This document shows positions 32,510 to 32,976 of a stretch of 64,000 bases of DNA, one piece after another. The translations under genes were made by a program, and so were the position numbers. How positions within the stretch are numbered: the first letter of the stretch is position 1; each line of letters begins with the position of its first letter. Source of the stretch: an uncultured Microthrixaceae bacterium (GTDB taxonomy: Bacteria; Actinomycetota; Acidimicrobiia; Acidimicrobiales; VFJN01); NCBI GenBank assembly GCA_963721695.1, contig CAVRKU010000004.1, positions 10,927 through 74,926 on the forward strand, given 5' to 3'. A model generated the notes under the pieces. It was given only the letters and a program-made list of their open reading frames with translations, was not told the origin of the DNA and ran no database searches.

Positions 32510-32580
32510 CTGCCAGAGGAGGACTCGAACCCCCATCGGCCGGGCAACAACCGGCGGTCCTTCCGTTGGACGATCTGGCA
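32510..32580 (-). tRNA. tRNA-Asn (anticodon GUU), no CCA
   Basis: Acceptor UGCCAGA/UCUGGCA (U1-A72), G73, D-arm GUCC-AACGGAA-GGAC, anticodon arm GCCGG-UUGUUGC-CCGGC, T-arm GGGGG-UUCGAGU-CCUCC. Confidence 0.85.
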
Positions 32581-32581
32581 G

Positions 32582-32657
32582 TGGTACCGCGACGGGGGCT
32601 CGAACCCCGACCTCCGGGTTGAGAACCCGGCGTCCTGACCGCTTGGACGATCGCGGC
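32582..32657 (-). tRNA. tRNA-Glu (anticodon CUC), CCA encoded
   Basis: Anticodon arm CCGGG-UUCUCAA-CCCGG, D-arm GUCC-AAGCGGUCA-GGAC, T-arm CGGGG-UUCGAGC-CCCCG, G1-U72, A73. Confidence 0.8.
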
Positions 32658-32658
32658 A

Positions 32659-32736
32659 TGGCCTCGCCGGCACGACTCGAACGTGCGACCTCCGCCTTCG
32701 GAGGGCGGCGCTCTGCTCCGGCTGAGCTACGGCGAG
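32659..32736 (-). tRNA. tRNA-Arg (anticodon CCG), CCA encoded
   Basis: Acceptor CUCGCCG/CGGCGAG, U8 A9, D-arm GCUC-AGCCGGAGCA-GAGC, anticodon arm CCGCC-CUCCGAA-GGCGG, T-arm GCACG-UUCGAGU-CGUGC, G73. Confidence 0.85.
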
Positions 32737-32737
32737 G

Positions 32738-32813
32738 TGGTGTCGACGGCAGGGGTCGAACCTGCATCCTCTGGGTTCGGAACCCAGTGCCTTCTCCATT
32801 GGGCCACGTCGAC
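32738..32813 (-). tRNA. Second, sequence-unrelated tRNA with anticodon CCG, CCA encoded
   Basis: Acceptor GUCGACG/CGUCGAC, anticodon arm CUGGG-UUCCGAA-CCCAG, T-arm GCAGG-UUCGACC-CCUGC. The 3-bp D stem GCC(C)-AAUGGAGAA-GGC resembles that of the CAG tRNA at 30502. Confidence 0.65.
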
Positions 32814-32814
32814 G

Positions 32815-32892
32815 TGGTGCGCGTCCTGGGTCTCGAACCCAGTCTCGTTCCGGGGTAAGAGCCCGGTGCCCTACCGGTCAGGCGTGGCGCGC
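32815..32892 (-). tRNA. tRNA-Lys-like (anticodon CUU), CCA encoded
   Basis: Anticodon arm CCGGG-CUCUUAC-CCCGG, T-arm CUGGG-UUCGAGA-CCCAG, A73. Deviations: a 7-nt variable loop, A8, and one acceptor mismatch. Confidence 0.6.
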
Positions 32893-32893
32893 G

Positions 32894-32976
32894 TGGTGGG
32901 TCGGGGAGGAATCGAACCCCCTGTGTCGGAAGACGGCTGGTCTACAGCCAGCTGCGCCCCATGGCGCGACCGACCC
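32894..32976 (-). tRNA. tRNA-Tyr (anticodon GUA), class II, CCA encoded
   Basis: Acceptor GGGUCGG/CCGACCC, anticodon arm GCUGG-CUGUAGA-CCAGC, 14-nt variable arm with a GUC/GAC stem, T-arm GGGGG-UUCGAUU-CCUCC, A73. Confidence 0.85.

What the first reader, a model, noticed from the sequence alone, without database searches (positions are those of the whole stretch)
32510..32976. Extreme packing: six consecutive tRNA genes separated by exactly 1 nt, most with encoded CCA
The Tyr, Lys, CCG, Arg, Glu and Asn tRNAs abut with single-nucleotide spacers at 32581, 32658, 32737, 32814 and 32893. In the second array (30345-30884) the spacers are 1-4 nt. Each upstream tRNA ends ...NCCA, then comes one nucleotide, then the next +1 base. 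RNase P cleavage of one tRNA therefore almost completes 3' maturation of the previous one. Ordinary bacterial tRNA operons have spacers of tens of nucleotides. This density is what is reported for mobile or phage tRNA arrays.
Basis: seen in the sequence. Interest (0 to 1): 0.7.

Follow-up and report, generated by a model that had tools for sequence, protein, structure and literature searches.

The report
Tightly packed tRNA array in RNA-repair island
Six real tRNA genes sit one base apart inside a 5-kb, strain-variable island of about 16 tRNA genes plus RNA-repair genes (RtcB ligase, Ro60/Rsr and a Y-like RNA) in an uncultured soil actinobacterium, so this is a compact new example of a known kind of accessory tRNA array, not a new system.

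Summary
ARAGORN and Rfam place six minus-strand tRNAs (Tyr, Lys, Arg, Arg, Glu, Asn) at 32508-32976. The spacers are exactly 1 nt and five of the six genes encode CCA. Two independent assemblies of the same species reproduce this, one of them Illumina.

The window is not a phage. It is core chromosome of an Acidimicrobiia bacterium (ribosomal protein operons, groESL, guaBA). The tRNAs lie in a 4.97-kb island (about 28433-33405) inserted between groEL and a CBS gene. Strains that are 99% identical lack the island.

In transcription order the island holds a weak tRNA-Trp, six tRNAs, rtcB, about nine tRNAs, a YrlA-like Y RNA and rsr (TROVE). Homologous rtcB-split arrays occur in other Acidimicrobiia, in Dehalococcoidia and Elusimicrobia MAGs, and in viral contigs. 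"CCA + 1 nt" is their commonest junction (56 junctions, against 7-10 for each other short spacing). It is absent from the well-studied Anabaena array.

The most likely mechanism, which is inferred, is this: one polycistronic transcript is cut by RNase P at every junction, each 1-nt trailer is trimmed by an exonuclease, and the island supplies and repairs tRNA under stress.

It is a new member of a known kind (L-type or phage-like tRNA arrays, and rsr-yrlA-rtcB repair operons). A conserved, co-varying inverted repeat brackets the array and remains unexplained.

The parts
28433..33405 (-). Accessory island of about 4.97 kb: rsr, YrlA-like RNA, tRNA array B, rtcB, tRNA array A and a leader. It lies between the groEL terminator hairpin and the stop codon of a CBS-domain gene.
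   Evidence: Contigs L246 and L247 (99.3-99.5% identical over groEL, 97.7-98.5% over CBS-dus-maf) join window 28432 directly to 33404/33418. The island is present in the window, L249, L253 and L254.
33066..33135 (-). Weak tRNA-Trp(CCA)-like gene, first unit of the island.
   Evidence: Rfam tRNA scores 22.2 bits, below the gathering score. ARAGORN calls it at a relaxed threshold. Orthologous Trp genes are called at default settings in L004, L006, L031 and L174.
32977..33065 (-). Structured 89-nt spacer between Trp and Tyr. It holds hairpin CCGGAC..GTCCGG, the conserved motif TTGACAAC (33024-33031), the 5' arm of the long-range inverted repeat (33009-33020, GCAGAGACATCG on the RNA strand), and hairpin GGCCAG..CTGGCC (32984-33001).
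   Evidence: The motif and both hairpins are conserved, with co-varying stems, in L031, L173, L174, L001 and L165.
32894..32976 (-). tRNA-Tyr(GTA), ends ACCA, 1-nt spacer (32893).
   Evidence: ARAGORN; Rfam 43.4 bits.
32815..32892 (-). tRNA-Lys(CTT), ends ACCA, 1-nt spacer (32814).
   Evidence: ARAGORN; Rfam 39.9 bits.
32738..32813 (-). tRNA-Arg(CCG), ends ACCA, 1-nt spacer (32737). The orthologue carries ACG in most relatives and CCT in L163.
   Evidence: (65.6 bits).
32659..32736 (-). tRNA-Arg(CCG), ends GCCA, 1-nt spacer (32658).
   Evidence: 61.7 bits.
32582..32657 (-). tRNA-Glu(CTC), ends ACCA, 1-nt spacer (32581).
   Evidence: 62.3 bits.
32508..32580 (-). tRNA-Asn(GTT). It has no full CCA (G-CC-t). 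It lies 36 nt upstream of the rtcB start codon, and that gap holds a GGAGG ribosome-binding site.
   Evidence: (51.2 bits).
31305..32471 (-). rtcB (RNA 3'-phosphate/2',3'-cyclic-phosphate ligase). In this window it is read through three apparent frameshifts (about 32060, 31465 and 31395).
   Evidence: The reconstructed protein hits Pfam RtcB at 383.6 bits over the full length. The gene is intact (386 aa) in the same-species contig L161. groEL also shows a clear frameshift and adk, rpoA and others show probable ones, so assembly error is the likely cause.
31256..31291 (-). Perfect 15-bp GC-rich hairpin directly after the rtcB stop codon.
   Evidence: A hairpin sits at the same place in L001, L006, L031, L034, L167, L173, L174, L176 and L185, with different, co-varying sequences.
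31178..31250 (-). tRNA with an aberrant 6-nt anticodon loop (CCCCAC). The same tRNA body carries Thr(AGT) in L161 and L162 and Thr(CGT) in L249 and most relatives.
   Evidence: Rfam 35.6 bits.
30967..31177 (-). 211-nt stretch with no detectable tRNA. It holds a 14-bp inverted repeat (30975-30988 / 31111-31124) and is part of a roughly 330-nt segment that is absent from L161 and largely absent from L162.
30345..30966 (-). Array B: Ile(GAT) 30892-30966, Val(CAC) 30812-30884, weak tRNA 30737-30810, weak Met(CAT)-like 30661-30731, Ala(TGC) 30584-30658, Leu(CAG) 30502-30579, Pro(CGG) 30424-30498, Gln(CTG) 30345-30419. Ala, Leu, Pro and Gln encode CCA. The spacers after CCA are 4, 3 and 4 nt.
30331..30342 (-). 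3' arm of the long-range inverted repeat (CGATGTCTCTGC on the RNA strand), 2 nt after the CCA of tRNA-Gln.
   Evidence: The repeat is 12 bp here and in L161, 15 bp in L249 and 19 bp in L162. In L031, L174 and L173 it sits at the same positions with different sequence, including paired substitutions and a paired 1-nt deletion.
30203..30309 (-). YrlA-like Y RNA candidate: a T-arm-like hairpin, a closed acceptor-like hairpin and a D-arm-like hairpin inside an outer stem.
   Evidence: Rfam RF02553 scores 42.2 bits (below the gathering score of 69), E = 4.5e-8, covering the full model. It does not overlap any called tRNA and lies 166 nt upstream of the rsr start codon. Similar hits occur in L174 (39.7 bits) and L001 (partial).
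28443..30036 (-). rsr (Ro60 orthologue, TROVE domain), frameshifted in this assembly.
   Evidence: Pfam TROVE 48.3 bits on the C-terminal piece. In the same-species contig L161 it is called as a 416-aa TROVE ORF preceded by an abutting 111-aa ORF. It is one intact ORF in L031 (527 aa) and L174 (528 aa).

Best explanation
The six tRNA genes are the 5' block of an accessory, horizontally acquired tRNA array of 12 confident and 4 weaker tRNA genes. The array is fused to an RNA-repair and quality-control module (rtcB inside the array; a YrlA-like Y RNA and rsr/Ro60 after it). Together they form a 5-kb island in the core chromosome of an Acidimicrobiia bacterium.

Proposed mechanism:
1. The island is transcribed on the minus strand as one or a few long precursors (inferred).
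2. Each tRNA ends in an encoded CCA followed by a single nucleotide and then the +1 base of the next tRNA. RNase P cleavage at each 5' end is therefore the only endonucleolytic cut needed to separate neighbours (inferred).
3. Each released tRNA keeps CCA plus one extra 3' nucleotide, which a 3'-5' exonuclease removes (inferred).
4. The CCA-less tRNA-Asn in front of rtcB would need a different 3' cut, of the RNase Z type. That cut would also free the rtcB mRNA (speculative).

Proposed function (inferred by analogy, not tested): the island gives a back-up supply of the tRNAs that read the host's commonest codons. It also provides a ligase that reseals cleaved tRNAs and a Ro60-Y RNA particle that handles damaged or misfolded RNA. 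It would be used when tRNAs are attacked or translation is stressed.

Shown here: gene calls, spacing, CCA status, island boundaries, presence/absence between strains, homologous arrays elsewhere, and structural conservation of the tRNAs. Inferred: co-transcription, the processing pathway and the physiological role.
For: Boundaries and CCA status: reproduced in L161 and the Illumina contig L163.

The tRNAs are under structural selection. Across 19 groups of orthologues from related arrays, 2664 of 2699 stem cells are paired, and 38 base pairs change on both sides while staying paired. Stems change 0.16-0.31 times per column and loops 0.27-0.64 (T-loop lowest).

The anticodons fit the host. They read the first- or second-ranked codon for every amino acid except Ala.

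Accessory status: there are precise empty sites in 99%-identical strains.

The module recurs. rtcB-split arrays with conserved gene order occur in L001, L006, L031, L034, L165, L173, L174 and L176 (Acidimicrobiia). More distant ones occur in L035 (Dehalococcoidia) and L075 (Elusimicrobia), and rtcB-linked arrays occur in viral contigs. The downstream partner is rsr in L015, L031 and L174, and the RNA-repair methyltransferase Hen1 in L173.

CCA+1 is the commonest junction. Among de-duplicated junctions whose upstream tRNA encodes CCA, 56 have exactly 1 nt, against 7 (0 nt), 9 (2 nt), 10 (3 nt) and 10 (4 nt). The spacer base is T 25, C 13, A 13, G 5. From my own knowledge, this fits the known preference of bacterial RNase P for U at position -1.

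Precedent for separation by RNase P alone: E. coli valV-valW has a 4-nt spacer (PMC2190699; PMC4176162 and PMC7049720).

Precedent for the function: the long tRNA array of Anabaena is silent until translation is impaired, 23 of its 26 tRNAs are charged, and rtcB is co-regulated with it and neighbours such arrays in other cyanobacteria (PMC8421152). YrlA RNAs are encoded next to Ro60 in more than 250 bacteria and phages (PMC4201824).
Against: There are no expression or end-mapping data, so co-transcription and the processing order are untested. The consensus scan found no promoter.

The island is dispensable, since near-identical strains lack it. Strains also differ by deletions the size of whole tRNA genes: L163 lacks Tyr and Lys, and L161 lacks the stretch from Ile to Pro. 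Four units are weak or aberrant, and some orthologues carry anticodons that probably abolish charging, such as a Tyr body with GGA and a Val body with CAA. Part of the array is therefore decaying.

The YrlA hit is below Rfam's gathering score. The best-studied long array (Anabaena trn operon) has no CCA+1 junction at all, so tight spacing is not required for function. The stem-pairing statistics come only from tRNAs that ARAGORN could call, which favours well-folded ones.
Confidence: 0.7

Rival explanations
1. The array is a functionless, decaying relic of a phage or other mobile element. The 1-nt spacing is a fossil of selection for compactness in a virus and does nothing in this host.
For: Distribution is patchy, with empty sites in 99%-identical strains. 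Strains differ by tRNA-sized deletions. Four units are weak or aberrant. Some orthologue groups contain anticodon changes that should block charging. A 211-nt stretch has no recognisable tRNA. Close rtcB homologues (77-86% identical) often have no tRNAs nearby. Viral contigs show the same commonest spacing.
Against: Stems are 98.7% paired across orthologues and 38 pairs show compensatory changes. Gene order is conserved across relatives whose RtcB is only 78-89% identical. rtcB is intact and rsr near-intact in the cleaner assembly of the same species. The anticodons match host codon usage. Neither the island nor its flanks hold any phage or mobility gene.
Confidence: 0.15
2. The arrayed tRNAs work mainly as decoys or sensors rather than in translation. 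As decoys they would soak up tRNA-cleaving toxins. As sensors their cleavage products would feed RtcB or regulate the repair genes.
For: The array is physically embedded in an RNA-repair module. The Anabaena study raised the sponge idea, where some array tRNAs are cleaved during stress (PMC8421152). In Salmonella, nicked tRNAs regulate the rsr-yrlBA-rtcBA operon (titles and abstracts of PMC7790460 and PMC10159003). Anticodon-loop positions outside the anticodon change fast (0.62 per column).
Against: The anticodons themselves are conserved (0.18 changes per column) and fit the host's preferred codons, as expected for decoding tRNAs. Encoded CCA ends and canonical cloverleaves also fit ordinary use.
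Confidence: 0.1
3. This is an ordinary housekeeping tRNA operon of this lineage that simply happens to be compact.
For: It lies among core genes (ribosomal protein operons, groESL, guaBA). It has host-like GC content and its anticodons match host codon usage.
Against: It is absent from strains that are 99% identical in both flanks. It contains two Arg(CCG) genes. Homologous arrays sit in unrelated genomic contexts. The only native tRNA pair seen for this species is 46 nt apart.
Confidence: 0.03
4. The 1-nt spacers are an artefact of an error-prone assembly or of how the software sets gene boundaries.
For: The window has many frameshifts (three in rtcB, one clear in groEL, others probable in adk, rpoA and elsewhere).
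Against: Two programs with different models agree. The junctions are identical in L161 and in the Illumina contig L163. The same junction type recurs in 22 loci.
Confidence: 0.01

Closest known systems
[quoted passage not shown] PCC 7120 on plasmid delta (Santamaria-Gomez et al. 2021, PMC8421152)
   Same: Both are supernumerary arrays of many different tRNA genes on one strand. Both are patchily distributed, and sister strains differ by presence or absence. Both have rtcB and other RNA-processing genes as neighbours. Both contain a few pseudogene-like members.
   Different: Here rtcB sits inside the array, and a Y-like RNA plus rsr follow it. The array is shorter (12-16 genes) and chromosomal. 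Its junctions are far tighter: the Anabaena operon has 2-45 nt (plus one gap of 125 nt) after the discriminator and no CCA+1 junction. Induction by translational stress is shown for Anabaena only.
tRNA array units of mycobacteria and actinobacteriophages (Morgado & Vicente 2018, PMC5966550), e.g. Mycobacterium phage Nanosmite
   Same: Both are high-GC actinobacterial tRNA arrays of high density. Nanosmite carries an RtcB-like ligase next to about 20 tRNA genes, including Thr(AGT), with some gaps of 0-1 nt.
   Different: The window's array has fewer than the 20 genes required by that definition. It is not in a phage, plasmid or recognisable integrative element. RtcB identity to phage proteins is only 49-70% at protein level, and 64-69% at DNA level.
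rsr-yrlBA-rtcBA RNA repair operon of Salmonella Typhimurium, and YrlA RNAs next to Ro60 (Chen et al. 2014, PMC4201824)
   Same: Ro60/Rsr, a tRNA-like Y RNA and RtcB are encoded together on one strand. The Y RNA candidate has the T-arm, hairpin and D-arm layout.
   Different: No rtcA or RtcR is seen, and the gene order differs. A tRNA array is interleaved with the repair genes. The Y RNA scores below the Rfam threshold.
E. coli valV-valW and other polycistronic tRNA transcripts separated by RNase P alone (Mohanty & Kushner 2007, PMC2190699; Agrawal et al. 2014, PMC4176162)
   Same: Both have encoded CCA followed by a spacer too short and too poor in A/U for an RNase E cut. RNase P does the separating, and exonucleases finish the 3' end.
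   Different: E. coli has 4 nt between two genes. Here there is 1 nt at five consecutive junctions. Processing is shown by experiment in E. coli and only inferred here.
Phage T4 tRNA gene cluster with dimeric precursors
   Same: tRNA genes abut with very short or no spacers and are matured from multimeric precursors by RNase P.
   Different: Several T4 tRNAs lack an encoded CCA and need 3' trimming plus CCA addition. Here CCA is encoded.

Membership tests
Canonical tRNA genes (Rfam RF00005) | Cloverleaf covariance-model score at or above the gathering score (29 bits) | tested here: met
   Twelve genes score 39.9-65.6 bits in the whole-window search. Two more reach 35.6 and 32.3 bits in the sensitive search. 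Two further units stay below threshold at 22-24 bits.
Canonical tRNA genes (Rfam RF00005) | 7-nt anticodon loop with a readable anticodon, and a 7-bp acceptor stem plus discriminator | tested here: met
   All six tRNAs of the finding and the six strong tRNAs of array B meet this. It is not met by 31178-31250, which has a 6-nt loop.
tRNA array unit (Tran et al. 2016, as applied by Morgado & Vicente 2018, PMC5966550) | At least 20 tRNA genes in the array | tested here: not met
   There are 12 confident and 4 weak genes. The homologous arrays L031 (20 genes) and L186 (22 genes) do reach the threshold.
tRNA array unit (Tran et al. 2016, as applied by Morgado & Vicente 2018, PMC5966550) | Density of at least 2 tRNA genes per kb | tested here: met
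   There are 16 units in 2.79 kb (30345-33135), rtcB included, which is about 5.7 per kb. The six-gene block has 6 genes in 469 nt.
L-array (Santamaria-Gomez et al. 2021, PMC8421152) | Patchy distribution consistent with horizontal transfer: close relatives differ by presence or absence of the array | tested here: met
   Empty sites occur in L246 and L247 at 99% flank identity. More distant relatives (L245, L248, L250-L252) also lack the island.
L-array (Santamaria-Gomez et al. 2021, PMC8421152) | Adds supernumerary, redundant tRNA genes to a complete housekeeping set | not testable with these tools
   The rest of the genome is not available. The only indications are indirect: two Arg(CCG) genes in the array, and the fact that strains without the island are viable.
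L-array (Santamaria-Gomez et al. 2021, PMC8421152) | Silent in normal growth and induced by translational stress | not testable with these tools
   This needs expression data.
YrlA Y RNA (Rfam RF02553; Chen et al. 2014) | Covariance-model score at or above the gathering score (69 bits) | tested here: not met
   The hit scores 42.2 bits, E = 4.5e-8, over the full model length.
YrlA Y RNA (Rfam RF02553; Chen et al. 2014) | Chen et al. criteria: E < 5e-5, within 4 kb of a Ro60 orthologue, and not overlapping tandem tRNA genes | tested here: met
   The hit lies 166 nt upstream of the rsr start and overlaps no ARAGORN tRNA. Its central hairpin is self-complementary (GUCCAC-UCG-GUGGAC), unlike a junction between two tRNAs. 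The E-value comes from the Rfam model, not from the authors' own model.
Ro60/Rsr (Pfam TROVE, PF05731) | TROVE domain above the Pfam threshold | tested here: met
   A fragment in the window scores 48.3 bits against a cut-off of 23. TROVE ORFs of 416, 527 and 528 aa occur in L161, L031 and L174.
RtcB RNA ligase (Pfam PF01139) | Full-length RtcB domain | tested here: met
   The frameshift-corrected protein scores 383.6 bits and covers model positions 1-426. Catalytic residues were not checked one by one.
Prophage or integrative mobile element | Integrase, transposase or phage structural genes, and flanking direct repeats (att sites or target-site duplication) | tested here: not met
   The flanks are groESL and CBS-dus-maf, and the island holds only tRNAs, rtcB, a Y-like RNA and rsr. 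No flanking direct repeat was found. There is no near match in the phage or plasmid collections.

The most novel reading that the evidence does not exclude
The whole rtcB-centred island may be a self-contained processing unit with design rules that have not been described.

1. 'CCA + exactly one nucleotide' would be a selected junction rule of rtcB-linked tRNA arrays across several phyla and viruses. It is absent from the classical Anabaena array. It would let RNase P alone dismantle the precursor.
2. The array and rtcB are bracketed by a conserved, co-varying long-range complementarity. One arm lies 32 nt upstream of tRNA-Tyr and the other 2 nt after the last tRNA. It resembles the RNase III processing stalks that bracket rRNAs, or else a pair of inverted protein-binding or recombination sites.
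3. Strains swap, lose and re-anticodon individual tRNA cassettes within this frame.
Probability: 0.25. Interest if true: 0.65.

Novelty: new member of a known kind. Interest (0 to 1): 0.4.

Why it matters
Accessory tRNA arrays are increasingly seen as stress and conflict tools: back-up tRNAs for when translation or the tRNA pool is attacked. This locus shows such an array physically fused to two RNA-repair and quality-control systems (RtcB, and Ro60 with a Y RNA). It sits in a poorly studied, uncultured actinobacterial class, as a cleanly bounded 5-kb island that comes and goes between near-identical strains.

It also yields a simple, testable rule. In rtcB-linked arrays from cells and viruses the commonest junction is CCA plus one nucleotide. 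That predicts a maturation pathway needing only RNase P and one exonuclease step.

None of this changes current concepts. It extends known kinds to a new lineage and provides a compact model substrate for studying how multimeric tRNA precursors are processed.

Tried and rejected
- **Prophage reading of the window.** The densely packed small genes at 1-13.7 kb looked phage-like by layout but are the S10/spc/alpha ribosomal protein operons. Rejected.
- **Near or distant DNA matches in the phage and plasmid collections.** Only rtcB matched, at 64-69% (72.6-72.7% in three fragmentary plasmid matches).
- **rtcB and rsr as pseudogenes.** Rejected. rtcB is intact and rsr near-intact in L161, and groEL (with adk, rpoA and probably others) is frameshifted in this window too.
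- **Hypervariable anticodons as a sign of an arms race.** Several orthologue groups do carry more than one anticodon. Per column, however, the anticodon is among the most conserved regions (0.18). Only the other anticodon-loop positions are fast (0.62). Inconclusive, and some of the differences may be nanopore errors.
- **Promoter and terminator scan.** It found no promoter and only one weak terminator-like hairpin, at the 5' edge of the Y-like RNA.
- **Flanking att sites or target duplications.** None found.
- **The rtcB-distal hairpin followed by ACCA as a tRNA-like minihelix.** The hairpin is conserved but the ACCA is not. Dropped.
- **The 211-nt tRNA-free stretch as a hidden tRNA or Y RNA.** There is no Rfam hit, and its fold is no better than shuffled sequence.
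- **CCA+1 as a universal feature of long arrays.** Rejected by the Anabaena operon.
- **YrlA in L031.** Not found.
- **MAFFT alignment of the two inverted-repeat arms.** It misaligned them. I compared them with duplex folding and by hand instead.
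Full report
**1. The observation**

ARAGORN finds twelve tRNA genes in the 64-kb window, all on the minus strand and all between 30345 and 32976.
- Tyr(GTA) 32976..32894
- Lys(CTT) 32892..32815
- Arg(CCG) 32813..32738
- Arg(CCG) 32736..32659
- Glu(CTC) 32657..32582
- Asn(GTT) 32580..32508

Rfam's tRNA model (39.9-65.6 bits against a gathering score of 29) gives the same 5' ends. Its 3' ends stop at the discriminator, 3 nt before the ARAGORN ends, which is the length of an encoded CCA. The sequences end ACCA, ACCA, ACCA, GCCA and ACCA. 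Asn ends G-CC-t.

**2. Is it an artefact?**

The window comes from an error-prone assembly. On GC3 frame analysis and translation, rtcB needs three frame changes and groEL is clearly frameshifted, with probable frameshifts in adk, rpoA, rpsC and glmS.

An exact-protein look-up with the neighbouring CBS protein recovered contigs of the same species. L161 is about 97.5% identical and has an intact 386-aa RtcB and a near-intact 416-aa TROVE ORF, so the frameshifts here are best read as assembly errors and not as gene decay. L161 reproduces all five 1-nt junctions. The Illumina contig L163 reproduces Arg-1-Arg-1-Glu-1-Asn. The spacing is real.

**3. What surrounds it**

The window is not a phage. 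Positions 1-28400 hold the S10/spc/alpha ribosomal protein operons, secY, adk, infA, rpoA, truA, rplM-rpsI, glmM, glmS, acpS, alr, tsaEBD-rimI and groES-groEL. After the tRNA region come a CBS-domain gene, a dus-family gene, maf, a Nudix gene, guaB, guaA and sucCD. GC content is about 71% throughout.

The best RtcB relatives are Acidimicrobiia, Acidimicrobiales and Microthrixaceae MAGs at 77-88% identity.

A sensitive Rfam scan and a relaxed ARAGORN run add four weaker tRNA-like units:
- 33066-33135, Trp
- 31178-31250, with an aberrant 6-nt anticodon loop
- 30737-30810
- 30661-30731, Met-like

Between the two tRNA blocks lies rtcB (Pfam 383.6 bits). Downstream of the second block lie a YrlA-like RNA (30203-30309; 42.2 bits, below the gathering score of 69; E = 4.5e-8; full model length) and rsr with a TROVE domain.

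Chen et al. warn that tandem tRNAs can mimic YrlA (PMC4201824). Three things argue against that here. The central element is a closed, self-complementary hairpin between a T-arm-like and a D-arm-like hairpin, all inside an outer stem. It overlaps no called tRNA. It lies 166 nt upstream of the rsr start. I therefore treat it as a probable Y RNA, not as a proven family member. Similar hits occur in L174 and L001 but not in L031.

**4. The island is accessory**

A look-up with the identical GroES protein returned ten contigs. L246 and L247 are 99.3-99.5% identical to the window over groEL and 97.7-98.5% over CBS-dus-maf. They join window position 28432 directly to 33404/33418. More distant relatives (L245, L248, L250-L252) also lack the insert.

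The island is thus about 4.97 kb. It is bounded on one side by the groEL terminator hairpin and on the other by the CBS stop codon. It has no obvious target duplication and no mobility gene.

Homologous arrays in other Acidimicrobiia sit in unrelated contexts (PTS, DUF72, DUF3048 and cellulase genes). They are followed by rsr in L015, L031 and L174, or by the RNA-repair methyltransferase Hen1 in L173. The tRNA array with rtcB is therefore a portable module that pairs with alternative RNA-repair partners.

**5. How general is the 1-nt junction?**

I collected rtcB-linked loci from species genomes (L001-L080), viral contigs (L081-L160) and metagenomes (L165-L244). I located each discriminator from ARAGORN's structure strings and counted the bases up to the next tRNA.

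In all sets the commonest value is 4, which equals CCA plus 1. After de-duplication, 62 of 251 cellular junctions and 27 of 202 viral junctions have this value. Among junctions whose upstream tRNA encodes CCA, the counts by number of bases after CCA are:

| Bases after CCA | Junctions |
|---|---|
| 0 | 7 |
| 1 | 56 |
| 2 | 9 |
| 3 | 10 |
| 4 | 10 |

Twenty-two loci contribute, including Dehalococcoidia (L035) and Elusimicrobia (L075) MAGs. The spacer base is T 25, C 13, A 13, G 5. In d=4 junctions that lack CCA, the three bases still start with C in 32 of 33 cases, which looks like degraded CCA.

One caveat applies. Near-identical strains that differ by a few SNPs can count more than once.

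The experimentally studied Anabaena trn operon (L257) has 2-45 nt (plus one gap of 125 nt) after the discriminator and no CCA+1 junction. A cultured actinophage, Nanosmite, has an RtcB-like ligase next to about 20 tRNAs, some with gaps of 0-1 nt. The window's packing is therefore the tight end of a pattern typical of rtcB-linked arrays, not of long arrays in general.

**6. Are the tRNAs functional?**

I clustered tRNAs from related arrays at 85% or more body identity, which gave 19 orthologue groups. In them, 98.7% of stem cells pair. 38 pairs change on both sides and stay paired, 39 change on one side, and 17 have only broken variants. Stems change 0.16-0.31 times per column and loops 0.27-0.64 (T-loop lowest). 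The anticodons read the first- or second-ranked codon of the window's genes for every amino acid except Ala. This indicates selection on the tRNAs.

There is also turnover:
- L163 lacks exactly Tyr and Lys.
- L161 lacks the Ile-to-Pro stretch.
- Arg#1 carries ACG in most relatives, CCG in the window and L161, and CCT in L163.
- The first tRNA after rtcB has one body but Thr(CGT), Thr(AGT) or an aberrant CCCCAC loop.
- A few orthologues carry anticodons unlikely to be charged.

The array looks maintained overall but tolerant of losing members.

**7. Mechanism**

Shown here: CCA-N-(+1) junctions, a single coding strand, no gap in the six-gene block large enough for another endonuclease site, and a spacer base that is rarely G.

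Inferred: RNase P cleavage at each +1 separates neighbours and leaves CCA+1, and an exonuclease removes the last base. E. coli gives the precedent. valV-valW has a 4-nt spacer and is separated by RNase P without RNase E, and exonucleases such as RNase T and RNase PH finish the 3' end (PMC2190699; PMC4176162 and PMC7049720).

tRNA-Asn lacks CCA and sits 36 nt before the rtcB start codon. It would need a different 3' cut, which would also define the 5' end of the rtcB mRNA. This is speculative.

The role as a back-up tRNA supply plus repair rests on two things: the gene content, and analogy with Anabaena, where the array is induced by translational stress and rtcB is co-regulated (PMC8421152).

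**8. Other features found**

- A perfect 15-bp hairpin follows the rtcB stop codon. A hairpin occupies the same place in nine relatives, with co-varying sequence.
- An inverted repeat brackets Tyr...rtcB...Gln. GCAGAGACATCG lies 32 nt upstream of Tyr, next to a conserved TTGACAAC motif. CGATGTCTCTGC lies 2 nt after the CCA of Gln.
- The repeat is 12 bp in the window and L161, 15 bp in L249 and 19 bp in L162. L031 (19 of 20 bp), L174 and L173 have complementary arms at the same positions with different sequences. The differences include two paired substitutions and a paired 1-nt deletion.
- Duplex energies beat all or nearly all of 200 shuffles in L162, L031, L174 and L173. They do so less clearly in L249 (5 of 200 as good) and do not clearly do so in the window (18 of 200).
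- The three mismatches on the sense strand are A.C and not G.U. This weakly argues against a sense-strand RNA helix.
- Whether the bracket is an rRNA-like processing stalk or a pair of DNA sites is unresolved.

**9. Comparison and verdict**

The locus combines two known kinds:
- long or phage-like tRNA arrays (PMC8421152, PMC5966550)
- the rsr-Y RNA-rtcB repair operon (PMC4201824)

It fails the 20-gene criterion for a 'tRNA array unit', though homologous arrays meet it. Its Y RNA is below the Rfam threshold.

I rate it a new member of a known kind. The more novel possibilities (the CCA+1 junction rule and the long-range bracket) are worth a follow-up but are not established.

Noticed in passing
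window 33009-33020 and 30331-30342 (also L161, L162, L249, L031, L173, L174): A conserved inverted repeat brackets the Tyr...rtcB...Gln block. It is 12-19 bp within this species. It sits at the same positions with different, complementary sequences in more distant relatives, including paired substitutions and a paired 1-nt deletion. Its 5' arm abuts a conserved TTGACAAC motif. It could be an rRNA-like processing stalk or a pair of DNA sites; this is unresolved.
   Followed up: partly
window 31256-31291: A perfect 15-bp GC-rich hairpin lies directly after the rtcB stop codon. A hairpin is conserved at this position, with co-varying sequence, in nine related loci. It could be a U-tract-less terminator or attenuator between rtcB and the second tRNA block, or a hairpin that stabilises the mRNA 3' end.
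   Followed up: partly
window 30967-31177: A 211-nt stretch inside the array has no detectable tRNA. It contains a 14-bp perfect inverted repeat (30975-30988 / 31111-31124) enclosing 122 nt. It belongs to a roughly 330-nt segment that is missing from L161 and largely missing from L162. It may be a small inserted element or decayed tRNAs.
   Followed up: partly
window 31178-31250; L161 12606-12682; L162 12609-12684; L249: One tRNA body (U73, G1-C72, C2-G71) carries different anticodon loops in different strains: TTAGTAC (Thr AGT), Thr CGT, or a 6-nt CCCCAC in the window. This could be real re-anticodoning or a local assembly error.
   Followed up: partly
window 32738-32813 and 32659-32736, against L162 and L163: Anticodons differ between strains in otherwise near-identical tRNA-Arg genes. 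Arg#1 is CCG (window, L161), ACG (L162 and most relatives) or CCT (L163). Arg#2 is CCG, or CCT in L163.
   Followed up: partly
L163 against window 32815-32976; L161 against window 30424-31177: Strains of the same species differ by deletions the size of whole tRNA genes, with boundaries at or near tRNA gene junctions. L163 lacks exactly Tyr and Lys. L161 lacks the stretch from Ile to Pro. The turnover looks cassette-like.
   Followed up: partly
L001, L035/L206/L207, L075, L161, L255: rtcB-linked arrays contain tRNAs with A at the wobble position other than Arg(ACG): Gly(ACC), Ser(AGA), Val(AAC) and Thr(AGT). Thr(AGT) also occurs in mycobacteriophage Nanosmite. From my own knowledge, this is unusual for bacteria.
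   Followed up: no
L173 6404-8146: In a sister array the downstream partner is Hen1 (RNA-repair methyltransferase, Pfam Hen1_L 383.8 bits) and not rsr. The next ORF was not scanned, so a Pnkp partner is only a guess. This suggests that RNA-repair modules are exchanged around the tRNA-rtcB core.
   Followed up: partly
window-wide, e.g. groEL 26721-28100, adk about 8898-9578, rpoA about 12400-13308, rtcB, rsr: Many genes, including essential ones, show frameshifts or garbled ends. The window comes from an indel-prone (probably long-read) assembly, so apparent pseudogenes in it should not be trusted.
   Followed up: yes
L036 and L042: In two other actinobacterial MAG or metagenome contigs, rtcB sits between tRNA-Gly(GCC) and tRNA-Cys(GCA), with tRNA-Val(GAC) following. 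From my own knowledge, this looks like insertion into the common Gly-Cys-Val housekeeping cluster, and it may hint at how rtcB became linked to tRNA genes.
   Followed up: no
window 55432-58386: An ORF with no Pfam hit (55432-56094) precedes a fragment that combines a UvrD-like helicase C-terminal domain with a GNAT acetyltransferase domain. The fusion is probably a frameshift artefact.
   Followed up: partly
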